Shown: one piece after another, positions 46,492 to 61,901 of the stretch
How positions within the stretch are numbered: the first letter of the stretch is position 1
How the letters are laid out: the number at the start of each line of letters is the position of its first letter
Source: Candidatus Marinacidobacterium sp.
GTDB lineage: Bacteria; Acidobacteriota; Vicinamibacteria; Marinacidobacterales; Marinacidobacteraceae
DNA: 64,000 nt
Assembly: GCA_965204755.1 (NCBI GenBank)
Contig: OZ242011.1
Coordinates: 384,001-448,000 of the forward strand
Direction of reading: 5' to 3'
The notes under the pieces: model-generated
Databases searched by the model: none
What the model was told of the DNA's origin: nothing
What the model saw: only the letters and a program-made list of their open reading frames with translations
Program-made: the position numbers and the translations under genes

Positions 46492-47238
46492 ATGCCCGCT
46501 CCCGCTGCCGCCGGCCGGCAGACCGCGGCGCTCCTCGTCATCGGCAACGAAATCCTGTCCGGCAAGATCGCCGACACGAACACGCAGGCATTGGCCCGCC
46601 TCCTCCGGAAGAAGGGCGCGGCGCTTCGCCGCGTGGTGACCATCGGCGACGACCCCGCCGCCATCGCCACGGAGGTCGCCTCGCTCCGGGCCGACCACGA
46701 CCTGGTCTTCACTTCCGGCGGCGTGGGCGGCACCCACGACGATGTGACGATGGAGGGCGTCGCCCGCGCGTTCGGCGTCGGCGTCGTCCTCCATCCCGAG
46801 TTCCTGGAGGCCCTGCGCCGGCGCGGCCTCGGGGAACACCACCGCAGCCTCGCCCGCGCCCCGGAGGGCGCCGTCCTGCGGCGCGCCGAAGGCGCCGGCT
46901 TCCCGGTCGTGGTGATGGAGGAGGTCTGGATCCTCCCGGGCCTGCCACCCGCGTTCCGGCAGAAACTGGAGGTGCTCGACGCGTGCCTCCCGGACGGCGC
47001 GGCCTACGCCTGCGACGAGGAACGGGTCCCCGGCCCCGAGGAACACCTGATCCCGCTCCTGAACCGGGTCGTGGAGCAACACCCGGAGGTGCAGATCGGC
47101 TCCTACCCCGGAGACACGGAAACCCGCATCACCTTCGACGCCGACGACGAAGACTCGGTGCGCCGGGCCGCCGCCGCGTTCCGCGAGTCCCTGCGGGAGC
47201 GGAGCGCCGGCGCGGAGACGCGGGCAGGCGCGGTATGA
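46492..47238 (+). CDS. Molybdopterin-binding / CinA N-terminal-like protein
   Basis: Motifs IGNEILSGKIADTN, TSGGVGGTHDDVT, LPGLP and IGSYP. Confidence 0.85.
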   Translation: MPAPAAAGRQTAALLVIGNEILSGKIADTNTQALARLLRKKGAALRRVVTIGDDPAAIATEVASLRADHDLVFTSGGVGGTHDDVTMEGVARAFGVGVVLHPEFLEALRRRGLGEHHRSLARAPEGAVLRRAEGAGFPVVVMEEVWILPGLPPAFRQKLEVLDACLPDGAAYACDEERVPGPEEHLIPLLNRVVEQHPEVQIGSYPGDTETRITFDADDEDSVRRAAAAFRESLRERSAGAETRAGAV

Positions 47239-49346
47239 CGGGCCTTCTCACCGGGCGCGACCCGACACGGCGCGCAAGGTTCGCCTTCGCCGCGGCGGCC
47301 ATCTCCCTGCCCTTCGTTGCTGCAACTCCCGCCGCAACGCAGGACGCCCTCCCCCTGAGCGACACCCACCGCCAGTGGCTGGAAGAGGAAGTCATCTACA
47401 TCATCAGCGACAGGGAAAAGGACGCGTTCGGCCAACTCCAATCGGAGGCGGAACGCGAAGCCTTCATCGAAGCCTTCTGGCGCCGCCGCGACCCGGAACC
47501 GCTCACCCCGGAAAACGAGTTCCGCACCGAACACTACGAGCGCATCGCCTACGCCAACTCCCGCCTCGGCGGCGAAACCGCCATCCCCGGCTGGATGACC
47601 GACCGCGGCCGCCTCTGGATCACCTTGGGCGAACCGGACGAGCGCGACACTTTCGTATCCGTACCGGGTCTCTACCCGGCAGAACTCTGGTTCTACCTCC
47701 AAAACGACGAGTACCTGCTGCCTCCGCTCTACATCCTTTTCTTCCGGGAGTACAACGCCGGCCCGTTCATCCAGTTCAACCACCTGATCCACCTGCCGGA
47801 GGAACTGCTACCGGCACAATCCTTTTCGGAAGGGGATTCTCGTGACGAGGCATTCGTCACACTCCAAGAGATCTCTCCGCACCTCGCGCACGCCACTATC
47901 ACCATGCGGGCCGATCGTGGAGTCACGACCGGACTGGCCCTGCCGGACATCGCCCAGTTGGAAACACAGACGCTGCTCCAAGACATCACCCGCGCGCCGC
48001 ATCGTCTCCTCGACACGAGTTGGGTTACTGGGGCCGACGCCGGACGCGGTCTCGTCGAGACTGAGTACCTGTTCAACTTCGTCCCGAGCGCCGGCGTAGC
48101 TCGTCTCTTTCCAGGCCCTGCCTCCGGCCCCCCATCGTGGTTCGTCCACTACGCCGTTGAGATCGAGCCCCAGTACTTCACCCTCGCCCGCGAAGAAGGC
48201 GGCACCGACTACTTCACCCGGTTCGACATCCAAGGACAAGTAACCGACGAAGACGGCGCAGTCGTGTACGACTTCGCGACGAGACCGTTCCTGCGTCTGA
48301 CCGGGAGCGAACTTCGGGAGGTCGGCGCGCGGCCCTTCGCTTGGCGAGGAATGTTCCCCCTGATTCCCGGAGAGTTTCGGCTGCGCATCGTCGTCAAGAA
48401 CGAGGCCCGCGCCGAATACACCGTCTTCGAGGACAAACTCACACCTCCCGCTCCTGACGCGCCCCTCCTGTCACGCCCCCTATTGCTCCATGCCGTCAGG
48501 GAGGAGGACACTGACGCGTACGCATCGTGGTCTCCCGAGGAGATTCTCTTGGTGCCCAACGGCCGGGGCGTCGCTCCTCTTGGCGCCCTTCTTCTCGTCG
48601 CGACGGCAACCGAAGGGCACGGAATCGTAAAGTACCGCGTCGTTCCCTGGACCGCGGGCGGAACGGGGGCCGGCGCCGCGCCCGTCGCCGAACAGGAGGT
48701 CACGGTCGAACGAGGGCTCGCGCAATGGACACCGCGGACAGACTCATGGAAGTCCGGTCGCTATGTTCTCACCGCTGTCGCGGGGGAGGAGGAAACCAGC
48801 ACTCTCTTTGACTTGACAGCCCGTGCAGGAGTCGCACGGCCATGGGGGCTCACTGACTCTTTCGATCCAACGGCGCCCGGCACCTTGGCGGCCGCCCTCG
48901 GCGAGCAGTGGCTCCGGGTTCGGGAGAGGGCGGCAGCCCGCGAGATGTTTCGCACTGCGTTGGAAGAAGCGCCGAATCTCCGGCGCGCGCGCCTCGTCCT
49001 CGGCCGGTTCGCGCTGGACGAGAACACGCCCCGGGAGGCCGTCAGCCTTCTCGAACCGGCTCTCGCCCAAGCACCCGACGACCCCGGGATCCTGCGCACT
49101 CTGGGAGACGCGCACCGCGAATCCGGCAACCCCTCCCGGGCAGCAGCCCTCTATGAGCGTTCGCTCGCCCTCCGAAGCCCGGATGTGGAACTCCTCAACG
49201 CGCTTGGATGGTCACTTGCGGCGGCCGGCGAACCGACGAGAGCCATCGGGTATCTGGAGCGCTCGCTTGAATTCGACCCAGAACAGGCGGAAGTCCGAGA
49301 ACTTCTGAAGACCGTTCGCGCGAGCGCGTCCCCGCCGAAGGGCTGA
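47235..49346 (+). CDS. GWxTD domain protein with C-terminal TPR repeats
   Basis: Motifs WLEEEVIYII, FWRRRDP, EHYERIAYAN and PGWMTDRGR; TPR-like helices at the C-terminus. Confidence 0.88.
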   Translation: MTGLLTGRDPTRRARFAFAAAAISLPFVAATPAATQDALPLSDTHRQWLEEEVIYIISDREKDAFGQLQSEAEREAFIEAFWRRRDPEPLTPENEFRTEHYERIAYANSRLGGETAIPGWMTDRGRLWITLGEPDERDTFVSVPGLYPAELWFYLQNDEYLLPPLYILFFREYNAGPFIQFNHLIHLPEELLPAQSFSEGDSRDEAFVTLQEISPHLAHATITMRADRGVTTGLALPDIAQLETQTLLQDITRAPHRLLDTSWVTGADAGRGLVETEYLFNFVPSAGVARLFPGPASGPPSWFVHYAVEIEPQYFTLAREEGGTDYFTRFDIQGQVTDEDGAVVYDFATRPFLRLTGSELREVGARPFAWRGMFPLIPGEFRLRIVVKNEARAEYTVFEDKLTPPAPDAPLLSRPLLLHAVREEDTDAYASWSPEEILLVPNGRGVAPLGALLLVATATEGHGIVKYRVVPWTAGGTGAGAAPVAEQEVTVERGLAQWTPRTDSWKSGRYVLTAVAGEEETSTLFDLTARAGVARPWGLTDSFDPTAPGTLAAALGEQWLRVRERAAAREMFRTALEEAPNLRRARLVLGRFALDENTPREAVSLLEPALAQAPDDPGILRTLGDAHRESGNPSRAAALYERSLALRSPDVELLNALGWSLAAAGEPTRAIGYLERSLEFDPEQAEVRELLKTVRASASPPKG

Positions 49347-49615
49347 ACCACCCCACAGGCGGCTCCACACCTCGGAGCAGTGCAACCCGGTCAATTCGAT
49401 ATTTTGGACGGCGACCCTACCCCACCCGGACGCCGGCCCCGGCCTGAATCGCCAGCCTCCCGAGACTCTCGGAGAACGGCCCGCCTCCGATGCATGGCAT
49501 AATCGTTGCCCGATCGCACCTCTCGGCCGTGCGAGAGCCGCCTCCCGCGACACCCGCAGGGCCCCTCATCTCGGCGACTCATTCTCGAGATCAACCTCAA
49601 TATCAAGGAGACCCA

Positions 49616-52600
49616 ATGCGAAAGCCCGCTTTCGCGCTGCTGCTCGCAGCGCTGCTCGCCGCTCCGACCCTTGCGTTCGGACAGGCGGGCGACTCCAGCC
49701 TTCGCGGCACGGTCCGCGACGACTCCGGCGCGGTGCTCCCCGGCGCGACGGTTACGGCGACCAGTCCGGCGCTGATCCAGCCCGCATCGACCGTTACAGA
49801 CAGCCAAGGCGCCTATCGGCTGGTGAACCTTCCCGCAGGCACCTACACACTGGAGGCGTCTCTTTCCGGCTTCAACACATTCCGACAAGAAGGCATCCTG
49901 CTGCGCGCCAGTTCGAACTTCGGCGTGGAGCCGGTGCTCTCAATCGGCGGTGTCGAAGAGACGATCACCGTCACGGCCGAGACCCCGATGCTCGAGGTCT
50001 CCCGTCCCGGCAACATCCTGACGATCGAGGGTGATCTGCAGCGCGATTTGCCGATCCAAGCGCGCGGCAACTGGAGCGACTTCCTCGAGTTGACCCCCGG
50101 CGTGAACGCCCGGCCCTTCGACGACGGCTCGGGCCGTATGGTTTATTTCGGCCATGCCACCGAGCACTTCTCCCATGTCATCCAGTTGGAAGGCATGGCC
50201 GCAGCGGGTTACACCGATTCGCAAGTCACATATGTCGGCATGAATGCCGACATGATGGAGGACATGTCGGTGAAGACTGGCGGCGCCGAAGCCAAGGATC
50301 CGATGGGCACCGGCCTGATCATCAATGTAATCACCAGGAGTGGCGGCAACGATCTCTCGGGCTCGGCAGCGTACGACCATCAGGAGTTCGACTGGGGCAC
50401 CGGCGACGATGACGGCTTGACTGGTTTCTTCGGCGACAACGAGGTTCCTCCCGGCTTCAACCCGTTTTCCGCCGAGAAGTCGAGCCTCGCCGGTCTCGAA
50501 CAGTATGGGAGTGGCGTCTACGATCCTGAGACTCAGGAAGGGAGAGCCGGTTCAACCGGCACTCCAACCGCCCATCTGGTGCGCCAAGCGGATTTCTCGT
50601 TCGGCGGCCCGATCATGCGCGACAAGGCGTGGTTCTTCGCGTCCTACCGATACGCCGATCTCTCGGCGCGGATCAGCCGTGGCGGAACCGATGTCGAACG
50701 CCTCACTGCCCTCTCCGGCATCGCCTTGGGCGGTCTCGGCGCCGCTCCGACCTACTCAGAGTTCCTGAACACGACCACGAGCCATCAGCCCTATCTCAAG
50801 ATCAGCGCCCAACTGAACTCGAGTCATGAACTGAACGCGTACTACCAGCGTGACACGACGGAGAACACTTCAAACCGCGAGTACGACCTCGCTTCGAGAC
50901 TCACTGTCCAGACCGGCGGTAACCTCTATGGTGCCAAACTGACATCGGTCTTCGGAGCGAACACAACCGGACAGTTCACTCTCTCCTACAACGACAAGGC
51001 ATCTCAGGTTCCCCTCGACCTCCAGCCGCAAGCGGGCGACCTACCGCTCTATCTGGAGATCCACAGCGGTTATTCGGTCAACAGCAGCGGAACGATCAGC
51101 GGGGGGGGGCGCCTCGCAGCCGCCGGCACCCCAAACGGCTCTGACCGGCCCGCGCGTCTCGTTCTTCTGCGGGGCGACATCACGCGCTATGTGGATGACT
51201 TGGCCGGTTCCCACGAGTTCGCTGTCGGTGTCTATGCGGCGCCTTGGAATCGCTATCCGAGCACAACTACCTACTCGTTGATGAACGGATGGTCCACCGA
51301 GCACCACGCCATGGTGGACGCCAACGGCAACATAACGGAAGATCTGGGTGCCGCGGCGGCTACCCGCTGGTTCTATCGGACCCGCACCGGCGACGAGTCC
51401 GGCCCGATCGCCACACTGCAGACGATCGACGCAACAGATAGTGATATCGGCGTCTATCTCCAAGACTCGTGGAAGCCAGCCGACCGGCTGACGCTGAATA
51501 TCGGGGTCCGCGCCGATTTCGTGCGACGCTCGGACGGGATTCGCAACTTCGACCGGATGAACACCGTGGCCATAGGCCCTCGTGCCGGCTTCGCCTACCA
51601 GGTCACCGCGGACGGCCGCAACATCCTCCGCGGCAGTTACGGCCGTGTACACGAACAGATGAACGGACGAGACGCGGTCACTCGGGTTCACGGCGGCGCC
51701 ACTGCCGGCAGTTACACGGAATATGACCACGACGGTGACGGTCTTCCGGATCACTCGGTGTACAACCCTCCGGTTGCCAGTCTGCCAAACGATGTGCTCT
51801 TCGACCCGGACATCGGGCAGCCGTTCGTGGACGAGTTCATCGGCGGCCTGCGGCGGCAGTTCGGCAGCCAGATTTCCGTGGACGCTGCGGTGATCCACCG
51901 CCGATACCAAGACAACTACGCGCTGCTCGATCAGAACGGGTACTACCCGTCCCAAGCACCGGCCCCGGTACCCTTGGGTGAGTTCCAGTTTGGCGCCGTC
52001 GACATTGAACAGGGTTCCATTCGCCAGCAGACGAACAACTCGTGGAGCCAGTTGCGCTATACGGCGATCGAGATCACGACGGCCCGCCGCACTGAGCGGA
52101 TGTCCGCCACGCTGAACTTCAGCCGCCAATGGCAGAGTTTCGGCGGCGACTGGAACCCCCACGACCCGGCCCGCTACATCCATCCGGAGAAGTTCGCATC
52201 CACCAAGGCCCTCTATATGCCGCGCGGCAACAACGAGCACAACACACTAAGGGCATCTACGGCGACCTCCTACGCGCCGACTTGGCGCCAGTGGTCACTG
52301 CGTGGCGGCATGAGTTATGTCATGCCTTACGACTTTACAGTCGCGGTGAGTTACACCGGGAACGCCGGACCGTGGACCGGTCCGCTTCTCCAGAGGCTGC
52401 CCAGCGACAGCCCAGATGTCGCGCAGTACGGCCCCGGCAGCGCGAACAACGGCAAGACGAATCCTCTGTCCACCAGGTACCGCGTCGTCGGGCCTGACCG
52501 AGGTGAACTGCAGGCCCAGGCGCCGACAGTCCACACGGTGGGGCTTTCGCTCGGGAAGATCCTCGACTTCGGCCCAGCACAACTCGAGTTGTCCGCCCAA

Positions 52601-52741
52601 GTCTTCAACCTGCTTGATGCCGCCAACCACAACCAGTTCACTTATAGTGGCGCGAATCGGACTTGGGTCCCGGCCTTTATGGAGTTGCGAAGCCGGCAGA
52701 ACGCGCGCACGATGCTCGTTCGAGGCACTCTCCGGTTCTAA
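49616..52741 (+). CDS. TonB-dependent receptor (carboxypeptidase-regulatory-like N-domain, Oar-type)
   Basis: RBS AAGGAG, signal peptide, GTVRDDSGAVLPGATVT, GGPIMRDKAWFF, YLQDSW and terminal LRF. Confidence 0.9.
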   Translation: MRKPAFALLLAALLAAPTLAFGQAGDSSLRGTVRDDSGAVLPGATVTATSPALIQPASTVTDSQGAYRLVNLPAGTYTLEASLSGFNTFRQEGILLRASSNFGVEPVLSIGGVEETITVTAETPMLEVSRPGNILTIEGDLQRDLPIQARGNWSDFLELTPGVNARPFDDGSGRMVYFGHATEHFSHVIQLEGMAAAGYTDSQVTYVGMNADMMEDMSVKTGGAEAKDPMGTGLIINVITRSGGNDLSGSAAYDHQEFDWGTGDDDGLTGFFGDNEVPPGFNPFSAEKSSLAGLEQYGSGVYDPETQEGRAGSTGTPTAHLVRQADFSFGGPIMRDKAWFFASYRYADLSARISRGGTDVERLTALSGIALGGLGAAPTYSEFLNTTTSHQPYLKISAQLNSSHELNAYYQRDTTENTSNREYDLASRLTVQTGGNLYGAKLTSVFGANTTGQFTLSYNDKASQVPLDLQPQAGDLPLYLEIHSGYSVNSSGTISGGGRLAAAGTPNGSDRPARLVLLRGDITRYVDDLAGSHEFAVGVYAAPWNRYPSTTTYSLMNGWSTEHHAMVDANGNITEDLGAAAATRWFYRTRTGDESGPIATLQTIDATDSDIGVYLQDSWKPADRLTLNIGVRADFVRRSDGIRNFDRMNTVAIGPRAGFAYQVTADGRNILRGSYGRVHEQMNGRDAVTRVHGGATAGSYTEYDHDGDGLPDHSVYNPPVASLPNDVLFDPDIGQPFVDEFIGGLRRQFGSQISVDAAVIHRRYQDNYALLDQNGYYPSQAPAPVPLGEFQFGAVDIEQGSIRQQTNNSWSQLRYTAIEITTARRTERMSATLNFSRQWQSFGGDWNPHDPARYIHPEKFASTKALYMPRGNNEHNTLRASTATSYAPTWRQWSLRGGMSYVMPYDFTVAVSYTGNAGPWTGPLLQRLPSDSPDVAQYGPGSANNGKTNPLSTRYRVVGPDRGELQAQAPTVHTVGLSLGKILDFGPAQLELSAQVFNLLDAANHNQFTYSGANRTWVPAFMELRSRQNARTMLVRGTLRF

Positions 52742-52821: not shown

Positions 52822-52864
52822 CTCATGTACGCTGGAGGTGGGGAGGAATGCCGCGACCCCCGAT

Positions 52865-53113
52865 CTTGACTTCGACGGTTTGGCCTTGTAAGTAGTTAAC
52901 GGGTTGGGAACTTGGTTTCGTAGGCACACTACAACCGGGCGGAGTTCGGGGGTGGAACCGGCGTGGCCCGCCGGGGCAGTCGGAGGCCCACCGGCCGGTA
53001 GATCCGCTCCGCCTCCGGGGTAGCCTTCGAGGGCAGGAAGAACCGCTCGTTCGTGCCCCGGTCGCAGCCGTGGGAGACCTCCACACGGAGCAGTTCCCGC
53101 AGCAGCCGCTCCT
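52865..53113 (-). mobile_element. 3' end of an IS1634-like element (copy 1), truncated by IS21
   Basis: Transposase tail ERLLRELL...LPSKATPEAERIYR...L*, then TGTAGTG...GTCGAAGTCAAG terminus. Near-duplicate of 54414-54705. Confidence 0.65.
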
Positions 53114-53543
53114 TTTGAGCAGGCAAAAAAATGTCCCCACTTTTCGGCAACCAAAATGCCCCACCTGCCGGCCCGCGGGAGAGAAGCTTGTCTTGGCGCG
53201 GCATTACCTGAACTGGGGGCTGAGCCGTCGGTTCGGGGGTAAGCCGGCGGACGCTGGGGCGGTGGCTGGCGTCGGGGATCTGGTGGCGGAGCGGCAGGAG
53301 GCGGTTCGGTATCGGGATCGGCTCCCGGGTCCGACGGTTCTGGACGGGTATCGGGAGGAGTGGGGCCAAGTGCTGGGGGACGAGGTGATGGCGGCGGCGA
53401 TGCTGGATCGGCTGCTCCACCACGCCCACATCGTGAACATCCGGGGGAACAGCTACCGGCTCCGGCACCGGGAGGACCTCGTCAAGGTGTTCCGTCGGCG
53501 AACGGGAGAGGAGCCGGCGTCAGCCGGAACGGGCAACGCATGA
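53114..53543 (+). mobile_element. Internally deleted IS21-family element (IstA N-terminus fused in frame to IstB C-terminus)
   Basis: Subterminal repeats aaaatgtccccac/aaaatgccccac; IstA-like LVLARHYL..GLS; IstB C-terminal EWGQVLGDEVMAAAMLDRLLHHAHIVNIRGNSYRLR. Confidence 0.8.
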
Positions 53544-53598
53544 GGTCGGCCCGGCCCCTCCGCTTCACCCGGTTCCGGCGCCGGAGCACCGCCCCTCA

Positions 53599-53661
53599 GG
53601 TCGGTCGGGCCGCTGGCTCCCTCGGCCCTCCGGGCCTCCGTCCCAAGCGGCCCGACCGACC
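53599..53661. terminator. 16-bp perfect stem hairpin between the IS21 remnant and the peptide gene
   Basis: ggtcggtcgggccgct (53599-53614) pairs with agcggcccgaccgacc (53646-53661). Confidence 0.6.
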
Positions 53662-53673
53662 CGTCGGAGCCCT

Positions 53674-53958
53674 CTAGCACTCGTCGCAGCTGGGGCCGCC
53701 GCAGGTGTCGCAGGTGTCGGGGCAGGTGTGCCTCTCGTCGTCCGTCGGACCCGGGCAGCCGCCGCAGGTGTACCCGCAGGTCGGGCAGCAGGTCCGCGGG
53801 CAGGTCGGGTCGCAGGTGTTGTGGCCTCCGGCGGCATCCCCCATCTGGTCGTCGGTGAGGCTGACCAGGGGACGCTTCTTCAGGCGGAGCACCTGCTTCT
53901 TCTCGGTCTTCTCCTCGGCCGGCGGCCGCGGACCCGTCTCAGTGGCGGACTTTTTCAT
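53674..53958 (-). CDS. Putative RiPP (lanthipeptide-like) precursor: 45-aa double-Gly leader + 49-aa Thr-Cys-repeat core
   Basis: MKKSATETGPRPPAEEKTEKKQVLRLKKRPLVSLTDDQMGDAAGG|HNTCDPTCPRTCCPTCGYTCGGCPGPTDDERHTCPDTCDTCGGPSCDEC. RBS GGAGA and an upstream sigma70-like promoter. Confidence 0.8.
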   Translation of the reverse strand: MKKSATETGPRPPAEEKTEKKQVLRLKKRPLVSLTDDQMGDAAGGHNTCDPTCPRTCCPTCGYTCGGCPGPTDDERHTCPDTCDTCGGPSCDEC

Positions 53959-54034
53959 CGTCGTCTTCTCCCATGGAAGGAAACAGTGGACCAATCGGCC
54001 GGCTCTCGCTCGACCGCCCGGTGAACTGTTGGCC

Positions 54035-54063
54035 AGTATCCGGCTCGAGACGGGAGATGTCAA
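54035..54063 (-). promoter_or_regulatory. Sigma70-type promoter for the precursor peptide gene
   Basis: Minus strand reads TTGACA (54063-54058), 17-nt spacer, GATACT (54040-54035), about 75 nt upstream of ATG 53958. Confidence 0.7.
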
Positions 54064-54179
54064 ACGCGTAGTCGGGGACGAGACGGCAGGAGCCCGGAAC
54101 CTTCGAAACGGGGGTTGCTCCCCGCTCCCGGAGCGTCAGAAGGCCCGACCGCATTACCGTTCGGAACACACGCCTGCTT

Positions 54180-54413
54180 CAACAGCCCACGGAAGCACGC
54201 CAGGACGCCTCGGCCGGGGATCGCGGCAAGGCGAGTCGGTATCGGGTGTGGCGACCGGCGCCGGAGCGAGGGAGCGCGCCGAGGGTCACCAGCCCTGCGA
54301 GGTCGCAGGTCGCGGTGGCTGGAGTGGCGGCGGCGGTGCGGCGGTAGTTCCCGGCGCTGAGGCGGCCCTCGAGACCCTCCGGCCTCCGACCGGAACAGGC
54401 GGCGCAGCGCCTT
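54180..54413 (-). pseudogene. 3' (HTH) fragment of a second Fic gene, frameshifted
   Basis: Close DNA similarity to 60520-60735 (KALRRLF...GLSAGNYRR...GRHTRY). It ends exactly at the IS terminus at 54414. Confidence 0.8.
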
Positions 54414-54745
54414 CTTGACTTCGACGGTTTGGCTTTGTAAGTGGTTGACAGTTAGGGAGTTGGTTTCGTAGGCACACTACAACCGGGCGGAGTCCGGCGG
54501 GGAGTGTCGGGGGTCAGGCGACTTCGCGCGAGTCGCCTCGGGGGTGGAACCGGCGTAGCCCGCCGGGGCAGTCGGAGGCCCACCAGCCGGTAGATCCGCT
54601 CCGCCTCCGGGGTGGCCTTCGAGGGCAGGAAGAACCACTCGTTCGTGCCCCGGTCGCAGCCGTGGGAGGCCTCCACCCAGAGCAGTTCCCGCAGCAGCCG
54701 CTCCTCGCGCAGCGGCGCCTCCGGGTAGGCCCGGGCGTAGACGCC
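54414..54745 (-). mobile_element. 3' end of an IS1634-like element (copy 2)
   Basis: YARAYPEAPLREERLLRELL...PEAERIYRLVGLRLPRR plus the same terminus as copy 1, with about 40 bp extra relative to copy 1. Confidence 0.65.
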
Positions 54746-56274
54746 GTGGAGGCCGTCCGCCTCAGCCTCGAGGGCCGGAACCTCGTCGAACCCGGGGACG
54801 CCTTCCAGATCCTCCGCGCCCTCCCCCACGGCCACGCCGCCGCCGCCCTCGGAACCCTCAAGCGCCTCCGACTGCCGGGCCTCCTCGACCGCAAGCGCTT
54901 CCGACCCCCGCGACCTCGCCCTCGCCCTCATCGCCGCCCGACTCCTCGCCCCCCGCCCCAGACTCGCCACCGCCCGGACCCTCGCGCCGGAGACCGCCTC
55001 CGCCTCCCTCGGCACCCTCCTCGATCTCGGGGAAGTGCGGTTACAGCCGGGACCGCAGGAGCAACACCCTGCAGATCGTCTTCGGCCTGCTCTGCTCCAA
55101 GGAGGGCTGCCCGGTCGCCGTCGAGGTCTTCCCCGGCAACACCGCCGACCCCGAGACGGTGGCCGCCCAGGTGGCCAAACTCCGCGACCGCTTCGGCCTC
55201 CGCCAACTGGTCCTGGTCGGCGACCGGGGGATGCTCACCGCCCGGCGCATCCGCGAGGACCTGAGCCCGGAGGAGGGCTTCCGCTGGGTCACCGCGCTGC
55301 GCTCCGCCGATATCCGCGCCCTGGTCGAAGCCGGCGCGGTGAACCCCTCCCTGTTCGACCGGCGGGACCTGGCCGAGATCTCCTCCGACCGCTACCCCGG
55401 GGAGCGCCTGGTGGTCTGCTTCAACCCCCGGCTCGCCGAGGAGCGCCGCCGCAAGCGCGAAGACCTGCTCGCCGCCACCGAGAAAGCGGCTGGAAGCCAT
55501 CGCCGCCGCCACCCGGCGCGAGCGCCGACCGCTGCGCGGCGCCGCCCGCATCGGAAAGCGCGTCGGCGCCCTCATCGGCCGCTTCAAGGTCGAAAAGCAC
55601 TTCCTCACCGAGATCACCGACGACTCCTTCGCCTTCCGCCGGAACGAAGACGCCATCGCCCGGGAACGGGCCCTCGACGGCTTCTACATCCTCCGCACCA
55701 ACGCCGAGCCCGAACTGCTCTCCACCGAACAGACCGTCCGCGCCTACAAGTCCCTCGCCTCGGTGGAGACCGCCTTCCGCAGCATGAAGTCCCTCGACCT
55801 CCAGGTCCGCCCCATCCACCACCGCCGCCCCGACCGGGTCCGTTCCCACATCTTCCTGTGCATGCTCGCCTACTACCTGGAATGGCACATGCGCCAGGCG
55901 CTCGCCCCCGTCCTGTTCCAGGACCACGACCGGGAGGCCGCCGAGCGCGAGCGCCCCTCCCCGGTCCAGCCCGCGCAGCGCTCCCCGGCGGCCAAGGCCA
56001 AGGTCGCCGCCCGCCGCACCCCGGAGGGGCTGCCGCTGCACGACTTCCCGACGCTGATCCAGCACCTCGGGACCCTCACCCTCAACACCGTCCGCGCCCC
56101 CAGCCGGAACGCCACCTTCCAGATGCGCGCGAACCCCACCCGGCTCCAGGCAAAGGCCTTCGACCTGCTCCGCCTTCCCGCCTCCGCGTAGCCAGAACCG
56201 AACACCCCCCGCCGCGCGGATCCCCGGTCCGTTCTCGGGCTTCTGACCTTTTGCCCCTTGGAACTTCCGGCTAG
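54745..56274 (+). mobile_element. IS1634-family transposase pseudogene (5'-truncated, internal deletion, frameshifts) with right end
   Basis: Motifs AFQILRALPHGH, LVGDRGML, ALDGFYILRTN, YKSLASVETAFRSMKSLDLQVRPIHH and RVRSHIFLCMLAYY across different frames; end ...ggaacttccggctag. Confidence 0.85.
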
Positions 56275-56660
56275 TCTGTGTCGCCAACGCGGTCTCGGCG
56301 AACCACCGCAGCCACGGGGTAATGTCGAAGGAGCGGTTCACCCGTTCGATGACTTGGTAGTATGGTCGGCGGCGGGCGATCTCGCGGGAGGGTGCCGCCA
56401 GGCTCGAGCCGCCGAGGGCTCGCGCCAGCGCCTTTTCCGCCCAGGGCGCGGGCCATGCGTCCGCTACCGTTCTCGAAGGGATGGACGAAGACGAAGCCGA
56501 GATGGGCCACGCCGGCCGAAGTGACCCGTGGGAGCCCTTCCGCCGCGGATCTCTCGTACCAGCGGACGAATTGCTCCATTTCAGCCGGTAGCGCCCCTCG
56601 CCACTTTGCCGGAAGGTCCTGACTTCAGGGAGGTCGGTGACAGCCGGGCAGCAGGTGTCG
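56275..56660 (-). pseudogene. Middle fragment of the second Fic gene
   Basis: FVRWYERSAAE...HLGFVFVHPFENGSGRMAR and RSFDITPWLRWFAETA in shifted frames; homologous to 60830-61250. Confidence 0.8.
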
Positions 56661-56682: not shown

Positions 56683-58137
56683 ATGAACCGTCGACGGAGA
56701 GAAGTGGAGATCGTTCCCTGGGTGCGCTACATCCGCCTTGGCGCCGTCGTCTGCGCGCTGGTCGGCTCGGTTTCCGGCTGCGGAGAGGATTCGGCCGCGC
56801 CCGCGACACCCGGCCCGGCGGCGCCGGCGCTCCTGCCTCCGGAGACGCGGCCCGAAGCCGTCGTTCCCGGAGAGATTCGCGCGTGGCTCGACGCGAATGT
56901 CCATCCGTTCGACGGCGCGCATCTCTCGCTGCCCCACACGGACATCGAGTTCCTGCGCGACTTGGTGGGCGACGCACGCGTGGTAGCGCTCGGCGAGGCC
57001 ACCCACGGCACTCGGGATTTCTTCGAAATGAAGGCGCGCATCCTCCGGTTCCTGGTCGAAGAAATGGGCTTCAACACCTTCGCCATCGAGGCCTCTTGGC
57101 CGGAGGCGATGCGCCTCGACCGCTATGTGCGCACCGGAGACGGCGATTCCGCCGTACTCCTGTCAGGGCTGTACTTCTGGACCTGGCGGACCGAGTCGGT
57201 GCTGGAGATGATCGAGTGGATGCGTGCCCACAACGAGGCGGGCGGGAACATCGGATTCCATGGCATAGACATGCAACTTCCCAGAATGGCCCTGCACATC
57301 GTGCGTGAATTCATCCGTTTCGTGGACCCCGCGCGCGTGGACGAGGTGGCCTCCCGGCTCGACTGCCTCGCTCGGCACGCCAATCAGCCGGATCGACTGC
57401 TGCCGCCAGTGAGTTATCGGGACCTGACGGACGCCGAGCGGGCGGAGTGCGGCGCCGCCCTGGAGGAAGTGGGGGCGCTTCTGGAGGCGAACCGCGCACG
57501 GTACGAGTTGGCCGGAGGCGTGAACACGGCAGCAGTCGCAGAGCGGAGCCTGCGCATCGCCTACCAGTATCACTTGGCAGAGGTCGGGAGGAGTGAAGGG
57601 GGACGGGCGCAAGGGGCGGCGCTTCGGGAAGGGTTCATGGCAGAGAACACCCTTTGGCTCAACGACCGCATCGGGCCTGAGGGTCGCATGGTGCTCTGGG
57701 CGCACAACCTCCATGTTGCGACCAAGCCCGGGAGACAGGGGCACTATCAGCGGGAGGCCCTCGGCGACGACATGGTGGTCATCGGTTTCAGCCACGAAGG
57801 CGGCCGCTTCACCGCCGGCGACCTGTCACGGAGCCCATTCATGCAGAGGGTGTTCGATCTGCCGCCCCCCGTGGAGAATTCCTTCGAGGCGATTCTGGCC
57901 GGGGCATCTCCTCCGAGGTTCGTCCTCGACCTGCGCCGGACCGCAGACGAGCCCGGAAGTGAGTGGTTGTTCGAACCTCGCCTGTTCCGCAACATCGGGT
58001 GCTGCTTCCACCCGGACTGGTCGACACGGTCGGTCTTCTCCCTGAGTCCGCTCCCGGATTGGTTCGACGCCATCATCCACTTCGAGTCCACTCGGCCGAC
58101 TGTCCTGCTGCCGTCGCGGCTGCCAAGTACTTGGTGA
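56683..58137 (+). CDS. Erythromycin esterase (EreA/EreB superfamily) lipoprotein
   Basis: Lipobox VSGC; motifs ALGEATHGTRDF, GFNTFAIEA, GIDMQ, MAEN, WAHNLH and FDAIIH. TATACT lies 6 nt before the ATG. Confidence 0.85.
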   Translation: MNRRRREVEIVPWVRYIRLGAVVCALVGSVSGCGEDSAAPATPGPAAPALLPPETRPEAVVPGEIRAWLDANVHPFDGAHLSLPHTDIEFLRDLVGDARVVALGEATHGTRDFFEMKARILRFLVEEMGFNTFAIEASWPEAMRLDRYVRTGDGDSAVLLSGLYFWTWRTESVLEMIEWMRAHNEAGGNIGFHGIDMQLPRMALHIVREFIRFVDPARVDEVASRLDCLARHANQPDRLLPPVSYRDLTDAERAECGAALEEVGALLEANRARYELAGGVNTAAVAERSLRIAYQYHLAEVGRSEGGRAQGAALREGFMAENTLWLNDRIGPEGRMVLWAHNLHVATKPGRQGHYQREALGDDMVVIGFSHEGGRFTAGDLSRSPFMQRVFDLPPPVENSFEAILAGASPPRFVLDLRRTADEPGSEWLFEPRLFRNIGCCFHPDWSTRSVFSLSPLPDWFDAIIHFESTRPTVLLPSRLPSTW

Positions 58138-58139
58138 AG

Positions 58140-60335
58140 ATGAACTGCCGCGCCGCGCGGTCGGTGGGAAGCCGGTTCGTGCGCCTGTCGATCGTCGCCG
58201 CCTTGGTGCTCGGAGGCTGCTCCGGCGAGTCGCCGACCCTGCCCGGTGCTCCTCCGACACCGAATGCACCACCCGCGACGGTCCCCGAACCGCCGACCGA
58301 AGCGCCAGCGACTGGCCGAATTTCCGTCACCGACGACGATCTCATTCTCGCCGAACTGATCTCGGGCGACATGACCGGCAGTCCTTTCGACCTGAACGGG
58401 AAGACACTGGTCTTCACACCGGACGGCTCGGGCGGGTATTCGCGCTCCGTCAACCCGGTGCTCTGGGAGGCAGATGTCGGCGACGATGTCTCTGTCCTCG
58501 CTCCCGTCGCGTTCCGGAACTTCCGGTTCGAGTTCTCCGGGCAGCGGTGGGACTCGTTCCACATCAGTCCGAGGGGAGTGCTGACTTTCGGCAGCCCTTA
58601 CATCGACTCGTACTGGGCCACGCAACGGTTTTCGACCATGCGCCAACTCGCAGCGCCCCTGTCCGACCAGCCCACCATCAGTGTCCTGTACAAACCACTC
58701 CTCTTGCGGCACGGTATCGGACCCTTCGTCTCGTACCGGCCGGACCGGGTAGTCGTTACTTGGCTGGCGAGGGAGCCCCTCTTTTATGTCGACGGCGTTC
58801 CTCCCAAGGAGCCTTCCCGCTTCCAAGCCGTCCTCGGCGCCGACGGGAGCATCCGGTTCAACTACCTCGATGTCGCCTTCGGCGACGGCGTCGTCGGTCT
58901 TTTCCCGGCGACGGCCCCTGAGAAGGGCGACCTCATCGCCAGCCTTACGGACGCGAGGGATCCCTCGCTTCCCGGTCATCTCGACCTCCTGGAAGCGGCC
59001 ATCTACGGGACCGACACCGCTGACCGGGTGATCGTGGAATTCACCGTGCGCGACACGATCCCCGATCCGGCCGCCGGTATCGCCATCACTTATGGTCTCC
59101 TGTTTGATACGGATGAACCGTACTGGACTTATTGGAGCAACGCAGATGAGGACTTCCGATTGTCCATACGCTTGGAAGACGGCGACACCCGAACCAGAGG
59201 AGGGTCACTGTTGCCTCGGGAGGCAGGCGATCGGATCGCGATGCTGGCCGATATCGGTTTCTCGGCCAGCATCATGGCCAGCGCCACGCAGTACGAACGC
59301 TCCGTCTGGGCCGCCGGCGACAGCACGACCCCGCGTGAGGTCACGGTGCCGGAGGCGACGACGGATCTGTCGAAATCTGAAGATGGGTTCACTACGAGGC
59401 CGCGCGAGGTCTTCCGCTATCGCGACGCCCCCGACCTCGCCGCCGTCGCGTGCCGCATCGTCGCAGAATTGGGCGACACTTTCGACTTGTTCGTGTTCCA
59501 CAGCGAGTTCCGGATAGATGTCCAAGAGAGCCTGTCGGACTGGCGGGCGTACGGGAGCAACGAGGGAGTGCGGGGAACCGGCATGGGGTACCAGAGTCCC
59601 GCTCCATGCGGCAGAGGTCGGCTGAAGGGTCATTGGAGGATCCCGAACTGGGTCAAGGGCGGGAATGTGTGGTCGAGGAGTCGCGCGGAGTCCGAAGTCG
59701 CTGCCGATGGATTCGATGCCGGCCGGTACCACTTCGCCCATGAGTTCGGACATACCTGGCTGGCGGTGGCCGGCTATGAAGAGAACGGCGTGCGCCGGGA
59801 ATTGTCTCGAACCGGACATTGGCTCCCCGGACTCCACGCGCCTACAGCGTTTCCGTGGCGGGAGAATGTGCGGTGCCGTCGCTCGCTTATGGGAGGGTGG
59901 TACTGGGTCGAAAACGAAGACGGGTCATTCACTCGGGAAAACTGCTACGGCGCCTCCGCCCGAGGCTTTTCGTGGTTGGATCTCTATCTCATGGGACTGG
60001 CTCGCGCCGATGAGGTTCCAGACATGTTCATCGTGCGGAACCTGCGGGAAATCGGAGAGTTGCGGTACTCCGGCGACAAGGAGGTGGTGTCGATCGAACA
60101 GATCATCGCTGCCGAGGGGCTACGCGAGCCGACTCCCGCGACATCGCAGAAGGACTTCAACGCCGGCTTCGTGTACCTGCTGGATCCTGGGCAGGTACCG
60201 GAGCCCGACCTGCTGGAGCGCCATGGGCGATTTCGGGACGCGGCCGTTGAGCACTGGGAGCACATCACGGGCGGGCGTTCCCGTATTACGACTGAAGTCG
60301 CCCGGGAAAATCGAGCAGCGGCCACGAGGAAGTGA
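58140..60335 (+). CDS. Large lipoprotein with C-terminal HExxH zinc-metallopeptidase-like domain
   Basis: Lipobox LGGC, Pro-rich linker, AHEFGHTWLA...GHW, SLMGG (Met-turn-like) and LDLYLMGL. Confidence 0.7.
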   Translation: MNCRAARSVGSRFVRLSIVAALVLGGCSGESPTLPGAPPTPNAPPATVPEPPTEAPATGRISVTDDDLILAELISGDMTGSPFDLNGKTLVFTPDGSGGYSRSVNPVLWEADVGDDVSVLAPVAFRNFRFEFSGQRWDSFHISPRGVLTFGSPYIDSYWATQRFSTMRQLAAPLSDQPTISVLYKPLLLRHGIGPFVSYRPDRVVVTWLAREPLFYVDGVPPKEPSRFQAVLGADGSIRFNYLDVAFGDGVVGLFPATAPEKGDLIASLTDARDPSLPGHLDLLEAAIYGTDTADRVIVEFTVRDTIPDPAAGIAITYGLLFDTDEPYWTYWSNADEDFRLSIRLEDGDTRTRGGSLLPREAGDRIAMLADIGFSASIMASATQYERSVWAAGDSTTPREVTVPEATTDLSKSEDGFTTRPREVFRYRDAPDLAAVACRIVAELGDTFDLFVFHSEFRIDVQESLSDWRAYGSNEGVRGTGMGYQSPAPCGRGRLKGHWRIPNWVKGGNVWSRSRAESEVAADGFDAGRYHFAHEFGHTWLAVAGYEENGVRRELSRTGHWLPGLHAPTAFPWRENVRCRRSLMGGWYWVENEDGSFTRENCYGASARGFSWLDLYLMGLARADEVPDMFIVRNLREIGELRYSGDKEVVSIEQIIAAEGLREPTPATSQKDFNAGFVYLLDPGQVPEPDLLERHGRFRDAAVEHWEHITGGRSRITTEVARENRAAATRK

Positions 60336-61631: not shown

Positions 61632-61685
61632 GAGCGATAGAAGCGCAATCTATCGCTCATGAAATGGCCGATTCGTGAGCGATAG
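61629..61685. promoter_or_regulatory. Inverted-repeat operator over the Fic start codon, plus a third half-site
   Basis: catgagcgatag-N9-ctatcgctcatg (61629-61661) and tgagcgatag (61676-61685). Confidence 0.65.
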
Positions 61686-61901
61686 GAAATTCCTGCGATC
61701 CGATGCCACCGGGGAGCACCGCGCTCCGGGCGAATCGGGGCTTCTTCCGTATCTGGTGTTCCCCGGCGCACCCGATCCTCACAACGCTGCTCTGGCGGCA
61801 GTCGAGGGAGCCGCCGGACCGGAGCGCGCCTCTCGATACTCCGCGGCCGAGACGCGGCGGCGCGGCGGACGATGCCCTCGCCCGAAACCGCCGGACCGGA
61901 G

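What the first reader, a model, noticed from the sequence alone, without database searches (positions are those of the whole stretch)
53599..54063. Intact orphan RiPP precursor with a periodic Thr-Cys core and its own expression signals, inside an IS graveyard
Seen: a 94-aa ORF (ATG 53958) whose leader ends ...LRLKKRPLVSLTDDQMGDAAGG. The 49-aa core has 12 Cys, 9 Thr and 8 TC dipeptides; five recur exactly every 4 residues (TCDP-TCPR-TCCP-TCGY-TCGG), then a linker and a second block (TCPD-TCD-TCGG). It has an RBS, a TTGACA-17-GATACT promoter and a 16-bp hairpin downstream, while all its immediate neighbours are pseudogenes. Known: L(S/T)xxxLxxxxGG double-Gly leaders are cut by C39 peptidase ABC exporters, and LxLxKxxxxxL leaders with Thr/Cys-rich cores occur in class I lanthipeptide precursors. 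Inference: this is the precursor of an undescribed, densely cross-linked (methyl-lanthionine or radical-SAM thioether) peptide. Its maturation genes were either displaced by the IS21 immediately downstream or act in trans. Alternative: an exported metallothionein-like or disulfide-rich peptide.
Basis: partly seen in the sequence, partly recalled or inferred. Interest (0 to 1): 0.85.

Follow-up and report, generated by a model that had tools for sequence, protein, structure and literature searches.

The report
Orphan class I lanthipeptide precursor gene
This small intact gene encodes the precursor of a thioether-bridged (lanthipeptide) natural product whose modifying enzymes and exporter lie almost a million bases away in the same genome, and it belongs to a small undescribed family from marine Acidobacteria.

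Summary
A 94-aa ORF (53958..53674, minus strand) has a 45-aa leader ending in GG and a 49-aa core with 12 Cys, 9 Thr and 8 TC dipeptides. It has a sigma-70-like promoter, an RBS and a strong unique hairpin, and it sits among IS remnants.

It is a member of a small precursor family: 19 copies in 7 of 41 related genomes, and 79 representative clusters among 1.84 billion proteins. The leader carries the LxLxKx5L...GG motif described for Bacteroidetes class I lanthipeptides. Those 7 genomes are exactly the 7 of 41 that carry LanB.

The window's genome has one intact LanC-LanB-HlyD-PCAT cluster about 970 kb away, with its own paralogous precursor. It has a single C39 peptidase, no YcaO and no SPASM enzyme.

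The IS-free orthologous locus in a congeneric genome (Fic, two precursors, convergent OMP, GWxTD-TPR) also lacks LanBC. The gene is therefore an ancestral orphan matured in trans, not a cluster broken by IS21.

New features are the periodic (S/T)Cxx core, the dispersal of precursors around one class I enzyme set, and a TonB-dependent-receptor-like outer-membrane protein gene next to 11 of 15 precursor loci. Expression, the modification chemistry and the function remain inferred.

The parts
54035..54063 (-). sigma-70-like promoter, TTGACA-17-GATACT
   Evidence: the only such site in 1.2 kb, 0.1 expected. A TTGAC(N) box with a TAnnnT-like -10 lies about 96-121 nt upstream of the ATG in 5 of 13 precursor loci compared, one of them only approximately.
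53965..53972 (-). ribosome-binding site GGGAGAAG
   Evidence: Read. A GAGGAG-like element at the same distance is seen in the paralogues.
53824..53958 (-). leader peptide coding part (aa 1-45), LxLxKx5L motif and GG cleavage site
   Evidence: NF038153 lant_leader_L1a matches residues 20-45 with E 0.0022 and 18.1 bits, below the 22-bit cut-off. 19 of 25 family members match it at E<=0.01.
53677..53823 (-). core peptide coding part (aa 46-94): 12 Cys, 9 Thr, 1 Ser, 8 TC dipeptides, C-terminal Cys
   Evidence: Family-wide (S/T)Cxx periodicity is shown.
53674..53676 (-). stop codon TAG
53591..53670 (-). long GC-rich hairpin after the stop codon (putative transcript end or stabiliser)
   Evidence: z -6.1. 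Unique in the genome. No U-tract.
53355..53595 (+). 3' remnant of an IS21 (end of istB plus terminal sequence)
   Evidence: PF01695 positions 197-236 of 238. Matching fragments lie beside the other two precursor loci of the genome.
52849..53113 (.). copy of a roughly 300-bp multi-copy repeat (IS end or MITE-like)
   Evidence: about 80% identical to several full-length and several partial copies elsewhere in the genome, and to window 54413-54705.
54412..56274 (.). multi-copy IS-like DNA inserted into the Fic gene (second copy of the 300-bp repeat, then a 1.5-kb element)
   Evidence: 95-98% identical copies at several genome sites. No Pfam hit for its ORFs.
54179..54414 (-). 3' piece of a broken Fic/DUF4172 gene
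   Evidence: 87% identical to window 60501-60735, part of the intact paralogue.
56283..56588 (-). middle piece of the same broken Fic gene
   Evidence: 86% identical to window 60829-61136. PF02661 Fic hit.
49490..52741 (+). intact CarboxypepD_reg / TonB-dependent-receptor-like outer-membrane protein, convergent with the peptide gene
   Evidence: Pfam PF25183, PF13620 and weak PF00593. 75.6% identical over its full length to the OMP at the orthologous G002 locus.
46983..49346 (+). GWxTD/TPR protein, a synteny marker
   Evidence: 75.6% identical to the L012 orthologue.

Best explanation
The ORF is a functional-looking orphan lanA gene. It encodes the precursor of a class I lanthipeptide from a small, undescribed family found in the Acidobacteriota family of Ca. 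Marinacidobacterium.

Proposed mechanism, all steps inferred:
1. The gene is transcribed from its own promoter.
2. The LxLxKx5L leader is recognised by the genome's single LanB, which dehydrates the core Thr and Ser residues. The single LanC then adds the Cys thiols to give up to ten (methyl)lanthionine rings along the (S/T)Cxx repeat.
3. The genome's single C39-peptidase ABC exporter (PCAT), working with its HlyD partners, cuts after Gly-Gly45 and exports the 49-residue product.

All of these enzymes are encoded about 970 kb away (G000:C1:1401296-1409851), beside a paralogous precursor. The orphan position is ancestral and was not made by the IS elements.

What is shown: the gene's anatomy, family membership, the linkage of family members to LanC-LanB-PCAT, phyletic co-occurrence, and synteny. 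What is inferred: expression, trans-processing of this copy, the ring pattern and the biological role.
For: 1. Leader. L24-x-L26-x-K28-x5-L34 ... G44G45 is the motif that Walker et al. 2020 (PMC7268733, passages read) report for Bacteroidetes class I LanAs that have C39 proteases in their clusters. NF038153 (class I lanthipeptide leader) matches 19 of 25 family members at E<=0.01, best 2e-5.

2. Paralogues in the same genome. Two were found (46% and 42% identity, E 2.4e-7 and 6e-6). One lies directly upstream of LanC (405 aa), LanB (1095 aa, PF04738 and PF14028) and a C39-ABC exporter (743 aa), with HlyD-like ORFs.

3. Enzymes look intact. LanC keeps the HGxPG, WCYG and CHG motifs in alignment to PDB 8byk. 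The PCAT matches PCAT1 (4ry2) over its full length at E 5e-97 and shows the ECGLAC and HFVV motifs. That these motifs are the catalytic ones is recalled knowledge.

4. Only one candidate for each step. The genome has one intact LanB plus one fragment, one LanC and one C39 domain.

5. Co-occurrence. The precursor family is present in 7 of 41 related genomes. These are the same 7 of 41 that have LanB, and 34 of 41 have neither. In the 5 genomes outside the genus, the precursor lies 1.5-3 kb upstream of LanB on the same strand.

6. Dispersal is normal in the genus. The congeneric genome G002 (MAG OZ251549.1, labelled Ca. Marinacidobacterium sp.) has 10 precursor matches at 6 places but only one LanB.

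7. Orthologous locus. G002 L012 carries Fic/DUF4172, precursor A, precursor B, a convergent OMP and GWxTD-TPR, with proteins 72.6-75.6% identical to the window's, and no LanBC or IS.

8. Core composition. Thr is near-invariant before each conserved Cys (T48, T52, T56, T64). Ser+Thr roughly equals Cys in most of the 19 precursors, with 9-16 Ser+Thr against 9-15 Cys.

9. The window copy fits the family well. It scores highest of the genome's three copies against the family profile: 117.6 bits against 96.9 and 95.5.

10. The gene looks maintained. GC3 is 0.93. Intact homologues of 92-94% identity exist in other assemblies. The exact stretch is held by contigs of runs from three studies.

11. Predicted LanB(1-760)-peptide complex. 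Weak support only: score 0.49 (runs 0.54, 0.49, 0.49), best of 3 controls 0.00, partner pLDDT 36, runs agreeing in at least 25% of contacts. By the tool's calibration the mark was reached by 58 of 80 solved complexes and 2 of 110 mismatched pairs, but scores of 0.60 or under came from only 7 of those 80 and from both passing mismatches. A NisB-leader complex has been solved (recalled), so the pass may reflect likeness rather than binding by this copy.
Against: - This copy's NF038153 score (18.1 bits) is below the curated cut-off of 22.
- No LanB or LanC lies within the window. The nearest is about 970 kb away, so trans-processing rests on leader similarity and on precedent.
- The genome's own lan cluster has been rearranged. 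The OMP and a LanB fragment are left at 1.59 Mb, and the intact LanC-LanB sits next to an rve transposase at 1.40 Mb. Its expression is unknown.
- The core has 12 Cys but only 10 Ser/Thr, so at least two Cys cannot be in thioethers.
- The gene sits in a decaying, IS-ridden stretch, and the syntenic G002 locus has two precursors where the window has one.
- The genome is 89% complete by marker genes, although it is a single 3.98-Mb contig.
Confidence: 0.75

Rival explanations
1. A silent relic. The gene is intact by chance or only recently orphaned, and it is no longer expressed or no longer accepted by LanBC. It would be one more casualty of the IS-driven decay around it.
For: The immediate neighbours are an IS21 remnant and a Fic gene broken by IS DNA. 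The syntenic locus in G002 has two precursors where the window has one. The genome's lan cluster is itself rearranged, with a LanB fragment left behind.
Against: The ORF is intact with GC3 0.93. The promoter, RBS and hairpin are retained, and a promoter box is seen at the same distance in 5 of 13 precursor loci. Its fit to the family profile is the best of the genome's three copies. Intact homologues of 92-94% identity exist in other assemblies. Orphan copies are the rule in G002.
Confidence: 0.12
2. An exported, unmodified Cys-rich peptide. It would be disulfide-rich or metal-binding (metallothionein-like), would use only the GG leader and the PCAT for secretion, and might be taken up again through the neighbouring TonB-dependent-receptor-like OMP.
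For: The core has 12 Cys, 2 His and 6 Asp, and more Cys than Ser+Thr. Most family cores begin with HPH. A TonB-dependent-receptor-like OMP gene lies next to 11 of 15 precursor loci.
Against: Thr before each Cys is near-invariant, which a pure metal or disulfide scaffold does not require. The family co-occurs perfectly with LanB (7 of 41 genomes have both, 34 of 41 neither). In each of the 7 genomes a precursor lies directly upstream of LanC-LanB. There is no Pfam match to any metallothionein family.
Confidence: 0.08
3. A substrate of a different RiPP chemistry: radical-SAM thioethers (sacti- or ranthipeptide) or YcaO azol(in)e formation on the TC dipeptides.
For: TC and SC dipeptides and Cys-rich cores also occur in ranthipeptide and azole-peptide precursors (recalled knowledge). 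GG leaders are shared between RiPP classes.
Against: There were 0 matches to SPASM (PF13186) and 0 to YcaO (PF02624) in the genome, while the positive controls gave hits. No such enzyme was seen in the clusters scanned in six other genomes.
Confidence: 0.02

Closest known systems
Bacteroidetes-type class I lanthipeptide precursors with LxLxKx5L...GG leaders (Walker et al. 2020, PMC7268733; that paper places the pinensins in its family I 17)
   Same: The same leader motif and Gly-Gly end. LanB plus LanC rather than LanM. A C39-peptidase ABC exporter in the cluster.
   Different: The phylum is Acidobacteriota (class Vicinamibacteria). The core is a periodic (S/T)Cxx repeat with 9-15 Cys. Precursors are dispersed away from LanBC. 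A TonB-dependent-receptor-like OMP gene is conserved next to the precursors. I did not see pinensin sequences, so no direct comparison of cores was made.
Prochlorosins and ProcM (class II lanthipeptides of marine cyanobacteria)
   Same: One enzyme set serves many precursors that share a leader, and many of them are encoded far from the enzyme. The passage in PMC7268733 read states this for the prochlorosins.
   Different: Here the enzymes are class I (separate LanB and LanC). The leader is LxLxK-GG rather than Nif11. The N-terminal half of the core is conserved rather than hypervariable. Copy numbers are smaller (3 and 10).
Nisin-type class I lanthipeptides (NisA, NisB, NisC)
   Same: The expected chemistry: LanB dehydration followed by LanC cyclisation. 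A Thr-Cys dipeptide inside intertwined rings occurs in nisin's rings D and E (recalled knowledge).
   Different: No FNLD box. No lipid II-binding motif was noted in the core. The leader is removed by a PCAT and not by a NisP-type protease. There are far more potential rings in a regular 4-residue register.
RiPP clusters with TonB-dependent transporters (methanobactin with MbnT; some proteobacterial lasso-peptide clusters), recalled and not checked here
   Same: A secreted modified peptide is encoded beside a TonB-dependent-type outer-membrane protein, which suggests uptake or sensing of the product.
   Different: No lanthipeptide example was found in the literature searches. Here the OMPs belong to the CarboxypepD_reg/OMP_b-brl_4 type, and a plug domain or TonB box could not be shown.

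Membership tests
Class I lanthipeptide precursor (LanA) | Leader with a class I recognition motif (FxLD, or LxLxKx5L in the Gram-negative type) | tested here: met
   L24-R-L26-K-K28-RPLVS-L34. The motif definition comes from the PMC7268733 passage.
Class I lanthipeptide precursor (LanA) | Score above the curated cut-off of NCBIfam NF038153 (lant_leader_L1a) | tested here: not met
   18.1 bits against a cut-off of 22, E 0.0022, covering model positions 2-32 of 32. 19 of 25 family members match at E<=0.01, best 2e-5.
Class I lanthipeptide precursor (LanA) | Core with Ser/Thr and Cys available for thioether rings | tested here: met
   10 Ser+Thr and 12 Cys in 49 residues. Across the 19 family cores, 9-16 Ser+Thr and 9-15 Cys.
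Class I lanthipeptide precursor (LanA) | LanB and LanC encoded in the genome and genetically linked to members of the precursor family | tested here: met
   A paralogue lies directly upstream of LanC-LanB. The same order is seen in 6 other genomes. Co-occurrence: 7 of 41 genomes have both and 34 of 41 have neither.
Class I lanthipeptide precursor (LanA) | LanB and LanC adjacent to this particular copy | tested here: not met
   The nearest LanB and LanC are about 970 kb away. The IS-free orthologous locus in G002 has none either.
Class I lanthipeptide precursor (LanA) | Dehydration and (methyl)lanthionine formation demonstrated | not testable with these tools
   Needs co-expression and mass spectrometry.
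Double-glycine leader peptides processed by PCAT exporters | Leader ending in GG, GA or GS, and a C39-peptidase ABC transporter in the genome | tested here: met
   G44G45. The corresponding position is GG or GA in all 25 aligned members. There is exactly one C39 domain in the genome, in the lan cluster's 743-aa PCAT, which matches PCAT1 4ry2 over its full length.
Radical-SAM (SPASM) thioether peptides (sacti- and ranthipeptides) | rSAM-SPASM maturase present | tested here: not met
   0 SPASM matches in the genome; the controls gave hits in 8 of 14 genomes.
Azol(in)e-containing peptides (TOMM) | YcaO cyclodehydratase present | tested here: not met
   0 YcaO matches in the genome.
Metallothionein | Match to a metallothionein family model | tested here: not met
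   No Pfam family at E<=10.
AviCys-containing lanthipeptides (LanD-dependent) | HFCD flavoprotein decarboxylase in the cluster, acting on a C-terminal Cys | tested here: inconclusive
   The peptide ends in Cys. The two PF02441 hits in the genome lie at 1,435,074 (about 25 kb from the cluster) and 2,613,881. None was seen in the clusters scanned.

The most novel reading that the evidence does not exclude
The family may be a modular peptide-plus-receptor system. Each (S/T)Cxx-ladder lanthipeptide gene travels with its own TonB-dependent-receptor-like outer-membrane protein. At least four OMP subfamilies take this position, and three of them sit directly upstream of the LanC-LanB-linked precursor in different genomes. 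All modules of a genome would be served in trans by one LanB/LanC/PCAT set, a class I counterpart of the prochlorosin system.

The secreted products would carry a zipper of overlapping methyllanthionine rings plus spare Cys and His residues. They would be taken up again or sensed through the cognate OMP, acting as metal carriers or signals rather than as antibiotics.
Probability: 0.2. Interest if true: 0.85.

Novelty: new variant of a known kind. Interest (0 to 1): 0.55.

Why it matters
Class I lanthipeptides are normally mined by looking within a few genes of LanB or LanC. Walker et al. limited their search to seven genes from the LanC-domain protein (passage read). Orphan precursors like this one are invisible to that approach.

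This genus carries 3 to 10 such genes per genome for a single enzyme set. The product repertoire of class I systems in uncultured Gram-negative bacteria may therefore be underestimated.

The regular (S/T)Cxx core predicts an unusually dense, possibly interlocked thioether ladder. That would be of interest as a rigid peptide scaffold.

The recurrent pairing with TonB-dependent-receptor-like outer-membrane proteins points to a physiological role other than killing competitors, such as uptake, metal handling or signalling. No such pairing with lanthipeptides turned up in my literature searches.

Tried and rejected
- Expression. The look-up of sequencing runs listed no RNA holder, so nothing can be said about transcription. 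Read laying used contigs only. It showed the identical stretch in runs X1, X2 and X4. In X5, labelled a sponge metagenome, a related contig appears to carry two window-like precursor stretches about 845 nt apart. It gave no transcript ends. I did not attempt dN/dS from it because the list of differences was cut short and mixes paralogues.
That P0002/P0007 and P0003/P0006 share a contig is only suggested by equal contig lengths.
- Metagenome scan. The metagenome-contig scan returned one short locus (L043, 1178 bp), which was not used.
- Window OMP structure. The predicted structure was poor (mean pLDDT 37.4, pTM 0.40), so no fold search was run. The profile search of the PDB matched a TonB-dependent receptor only over 84 barrel positions (6ofr, E 2e-8). 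NCBIfam gave nothing useful. Whether these OMPs have a plug domain or a TonB box is undecided.
- Peptide-OMP co-variation. I looked for it by comparing precursors with their OMP subfamilies and found no clear pattern, so I make no claim.
- ESM Atlas. It gave only weak leads (score 0.83), among them a cluster in which 63% of members carry PF28317 Lant_leader_dom. I treat this as a lead only.
- Rfam. Nothing meaningful in 53400-54300; the single hit was a chance miRNA match at E 0.63.
- Weak peptide matches. The two at G000 3112923 and 3417161 (E 0.03 and 0.13, inside 185- and 208-aa open frames) were not followed.
- Phylum sample. 5 of 300 other genomes had weak matches. G156 proved to be a different LxLxK class I cluster with a non-TC core and no OMP hit. 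The G099 match lies inside a 276-codon open frame and does not look like a precursor. G217 is a short LxLxK-GG peptide with no LanB or LanC hit within 18 kb. G275 was not examined.
- Literature. Searches for the core motifs, for Marinacidobacterium, for lanthipeptide with Acidobacteria or TonB, and for sponge Acidobacteriota found no description of this family. Only search listings were seen, except PMC7268733, from which I read passages. Supplements were not consulted and may list such precursors.
- Protein names. Cluster look-ups returned no names for 7 family proteins.
Full report
**1. The observation**

On the minus strand, ATG 53958 to TAG 53674-53676 encodes 94 residues. Residues 1-45 form a Lys/Glu-rich leader that ends ...LRLKKRPLVSLTDDQMGDAAGG.

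Residues 46-94 are HNTCDPTCPRTCCPTCGYTCGGCPGPTDDERHTCPDTCDTCGGPSCDEC. This core has 12 Cys, 9 Thr, 1 Ser and 8 TC dipeptides. Five of the TC dipeptides sit in an exact 4-residue register and are followed by a second block.

- Only 1 of 100,000 shuffles of the core reached 8 TC dipeptides. None reached the observed number of period-4 intervals.
- GC by codon position is 0.57/0.61/0.93, as expected for a real gene in this 71.7% GC genome.
- TTGACA-17-GATACT (54063..54035) is the only sigma-70-like site in 1.2 kb, with 0.1 expected.
- A GGGAGAAG ribosome-binding site lies at 53972-53965.
- Just after the stop codon a hairpin with a 17-18 bp main stem folds at -65 kcal/mol (91 nt folded), z -6.1, with 0 of 200 shuffles as stable. 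It is single-copy in the genome and has no U-tract.

The surroundings are indeed decayed.

- Downstream lies only the last 40 or so codons of an IS21 istB plus terminal DNA (about 53355-53595), followed by a roughly 300-bp multi-copy repeat (52849-53113).
- Upstream, a Fic/DUF4172 gene is split into two pieces (54179-54414 and 56283-56588) by another copy of that repeat and a 1.5-kb multi-copy element.
- The next gene beyond it, an outer-membrane protein (49490-52741), is intact.

**2. What it is**

*Family matches for the peptide.* Pfam gives nothing for the peptide. NCBIfam gives a sub-threshold match of residues 20-45 to NF038153, the "class I lanthipeptide" leader domain (18.1 bits, cut-off 22, E 0.0022). 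19 of 25 aligned relatives match that model at E<=0.01.

*The leader motif.* The leader reads L24-x-L26-x-K28-x5-L34 and ends in Gly-Gly. Walker et al. 2020 (PMC7268733; passages read) describe exactly this LxLxKx5L...GG leader for class I LanAs of Bacteroidetes, with a C39 protease often encoded in the cluster.

*The genome's own lanthipeptide genes.* The window's genome (G000; one 3.98-Mb contig, 89% complete by marker genes) contains two paralogues of the peptide.

- One (G000:C1:1409543-1409851) lies directly upstream of LanC (405 aa), LanB (1095 aa, both Pfam domains complete), HlyD-like adaptor ORFs and a 743-aa C39-ABC exporter.
- LanC keeps the HGxPG, WCYG and CHG motifs in alignment with a solved LanC.
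- The exporter matches PCAT1 over its full length (E 5e-97) and shows the ECGLAC and HFVV motifs of an active C39 domain. The meaning of these motifs is recalled knowledge.
- The genome has one intact LanB plus one fragment, one LanC and one C39 domain.
- It has no YcaO and no SPASM domain.
- Two HFCD flavoproteins exist, neither of them in the cluster.

*Size and range of the family.* The family is real but small.

- 22 other proteins were found by the word-indexed search, the closest at 94% and 92% identity.
- A full HMM scan of 1.84 billion representatives found 79 clusters at E<=1e-3 and 20 at E<=1e-10.
- None of the 7 members looked up carries a name.
- The alignment shows an invariant or near-invariant leader (L24, R29, L34, T35, Q38, M39, D41, A43, G44, G45). 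The conserved core start is (HPH)xTCxPTCPxTCCPTCPxTC, with Thr near-invariant before the Cys residues.

*Distribution among relatives.* Among 41 related genomes the precursor family occurs in 7. LanB occurs in the same 7, and 34 have neither. These genomes are kin, so this is not a formal test. In the five positive genomes outside the genus, the precursor lies 1.5-3 kb upstream of LanB on the same strand.

The cluster order, supported, is OMP, precursor, LanC, LanB, HlyD, PCAT. The HlyD and PCAT genes were scanned against Pfam in G024 only.

In a phylum-wide sample, only weak matches appeared in 5 of 300 other genomes. The one examined in detail (G156) is a different LxLxK class I cluster with a non-periodic core.

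All 19 precursors of the seven genomes have 9-15 Cys, 9-16 Ser+Thr, 4-11 (S/T)C dipeptides and 2-9 period-4 intervals.

**3. Orphan by descent, not by IS damage**

The congeneric genome G002 is a MAG labelled Ca. Marinacidobacterium sp. (Acidobacteriota, Vicinamibacteria). It has 10 precursor matches at six places but a single LanB.

One of those places, L012, is the orthologue of the window locus. It carries, in order:

- Fic/DUF4172 (72.6% identical to the window's intact Fic);
- two precursors;
- a convergent OMP (75.6% identical over its full length to the window OMP);
- a GWxTD-TPR protein (75.6% identical).

L012 has no IS and no LanBC. The window gene has therefore been separate from the enzymes since before the two species split. 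The IS elements may at most have removed a second precursor.

A TTGAC(N)-17/18-TAnnnT box sits about 96-121 nt upstream of the ATG in 5 of 13 precursor loci compared (one of them only approximately). These are the window copy and four G002 precursors. This supports a real promoter of the gene's own.

**4. Most likely mechanism**

The gene is transcribed on its own. The leader is bound by the single LanB, and the core Thr and Ser residues are dehydrated. LanC then forms up to ten (methyl)lanthionines. The PCAT cuts after G44G45 and exports the 49-mer. All of these steps are inferred.

A predicted complex of LanB residues 1-760 with the peptide gave weak support only:

- score 0.49 (runs 0.54, 0.49, 0.49), best of 3 controls 0.00;
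- partner pLDDT 36, with the runs agreeing in at least 25% of contacts;
- by the tool's calibration, 58 of 80 solved complexes and 2 of 110 mismatched pairs reach the mark, but only 7 of those 80, and both passing mismatches, score 0.60 or under.

A NisB-leader complex has been solved (recalled), so the pass may reflect likeness rather than binding by this copy.

The regular register allows two ring schemes. In the first, Dhb(i) links to Cys(i+5), giving overlapping rings like nisin's rings D and E (recalled). In the second, Cys(i) links to Dhb(i+3). With 12 Cys against 10 Ser+Thr, at least two Cys stay free or form a disulfide.

**5. Rivals**

- Silent relic (0.12). The decayed neighbourhood and the rearranged lan cluster speak for it. 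The cluster's OMP, a precursor copy and an internal LanB fragment remain at 1.59 Mb, while the intact LanC-LanB sits beside an rve transposase at 1.40 Mb. Against it stand the intact ORF and its signals, the best fit to the family profile among the three copies (117.6 against 96.9 and 95.5 bits), and near-identical intact homologues in other assemblies.
- Unmodified metal- or disulfide-binding peptide (0.08). The conserved Thr residues and the LanBC linkage argue against it.
- rSAM or YcaO chemistry (0.02). The genome contains no such enzymes.

**6. An unexpected regularity**

A gene for a CarboxypepD_reg/OMP_b-brl_4 protein, a TonB-dependent-receptor-like outer-membrane protein, lies next to the precursors.

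- In 11 of 15 precursor loci no intact gene lies in between.
- In one more locus only an IS21 istB ORF separates them.
- In two loci one or two other genes lie in between.
- In one locus, whose upstream side is now a transposase, no OMP is present.

G000 has only 38 CarboxypepD_reg matches in 3.98 Mb.

The OMPs fall into at least four subfamilies.

- Subfamily A is 74-81% identical across five genomes.
- Subfamily B links G017's cluster OMP with a G002 OMP that lies about 4 kb from an orphan precursor pair (76%).
- Subfamily C links G012's cluster OMP with a G002 orphan-locus OMP (71%).
- Subfamily D is the window and L012 pair (75%).

Three of these subfamilies (A, B and C) occupy the position upstream of the LanC-LanB-linked precursor in different genomes. 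The pairing is therefore not just inherited synteny.

I found no clear co-variation between peptide type and OMP type. I could not show a plug domain or a TonB box, because the structure model was poor (pLDDT 37) and the PDB profile match covers barrel positions only. No paper linking lanthipeptides with such receptors turned up.

**7. Verdict**

This is an intact orphan precursor of a class I lanthipeptide that is most likely matured in trans.

It belongs to a known kind, the LxLxKx5L-GG class I LanAs. It represents an undescribed variant in three respects: the periodic (S/T)Cxx cores, the dispersed precursors served by one class I enzyme set, and the constant OMP companion. Expression, chemistry and function are untested.

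Noticed in passing
G000:C1:1590491-1594811 (L010) and 1401296-1411339 (L009): The genome's lan cluster appears to have been split by IS activity. The subfamily-A OMP, a precursor copy (94% identical DNA to the cluster-linked copy) and an internal LanB fragment (87% identical to the intact gene) remain at 1.59 Mb. The intact precursor-LanC-LanB-HlyD-PCAT set sits at 1.40 Mb next to an rve transposase. IS21 istB remnants lie beside all three precursor loci.
   Followed up: partly
L011, L013, L014, L035, L037, L040, L041, L042 and window 49490-52741: A TonB-dependent-receptor-like OMP gene (CarboxypepD_reg + OMP_b-brl_4) lies next to the precursors in 11 of 15 loci. The OMPs belong to at least four subfamilies. 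This suggests peptide-plus-OMP modules.
   Followed up: partly
window 56683-58137; L011 5574-9310: An erythromycin-esterase-family gene (PF05139) lies near the window's peptide locus. Its closest G002 relatives (67-74% identity, two full copies and a third partial match) sit directly beside the G002 lan cluster, divergent from its first precursor.
   Followed up: no
window 60501-61631 against 54179-54414 and 56283-56588: There are two Fic/DUF4172 paralogues about 6 kb apart, one intact and one broken by IS insertion. In G002 a single Fic gene directly precedes the precursors.
   Followed up: partly
L014 10427-11218; L038 6049-7995: Multihaem (CXXCH) plus TPR proteins lie beside orphan precursors in two loci, in G002 and in G025.
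   Followed up: no
window 52849-53113 and 54412-54745: A roughly 300-bp repeat brackets the peptide gene in direct orientation. Several full-length and several partial copies occur elsewhere in the genome (about 80% identical to the first window copy, 89-96% to the second). It was not classified.
   Followed up: no
L049 (G156:C2:1680001-1698000): Another Acidobacteriota family has a different class I cluster. It has an LxLxK leader ending in AG, a short core without the (S/T)Cxx repeat, two LanC-like genes, one LanB and two PCAT-like genes. No OMP hit was found.
   Followed up: partly
window 57963-60335 and 61657-62511: Two sizeable ORFs (790 and 284 aa) have no Pfam or NCBIfam match.
   Followed up: no
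run X5 (labelled sponge metagenome): A related contig appears to hold two window-like precursor stretches about 845 nt apart (the end of one core, then a promoter-like region and the start of another copy). This points to tandem precursors in a relative. The exact window stretch is held by runs from three other studies.
   Followed up: partly
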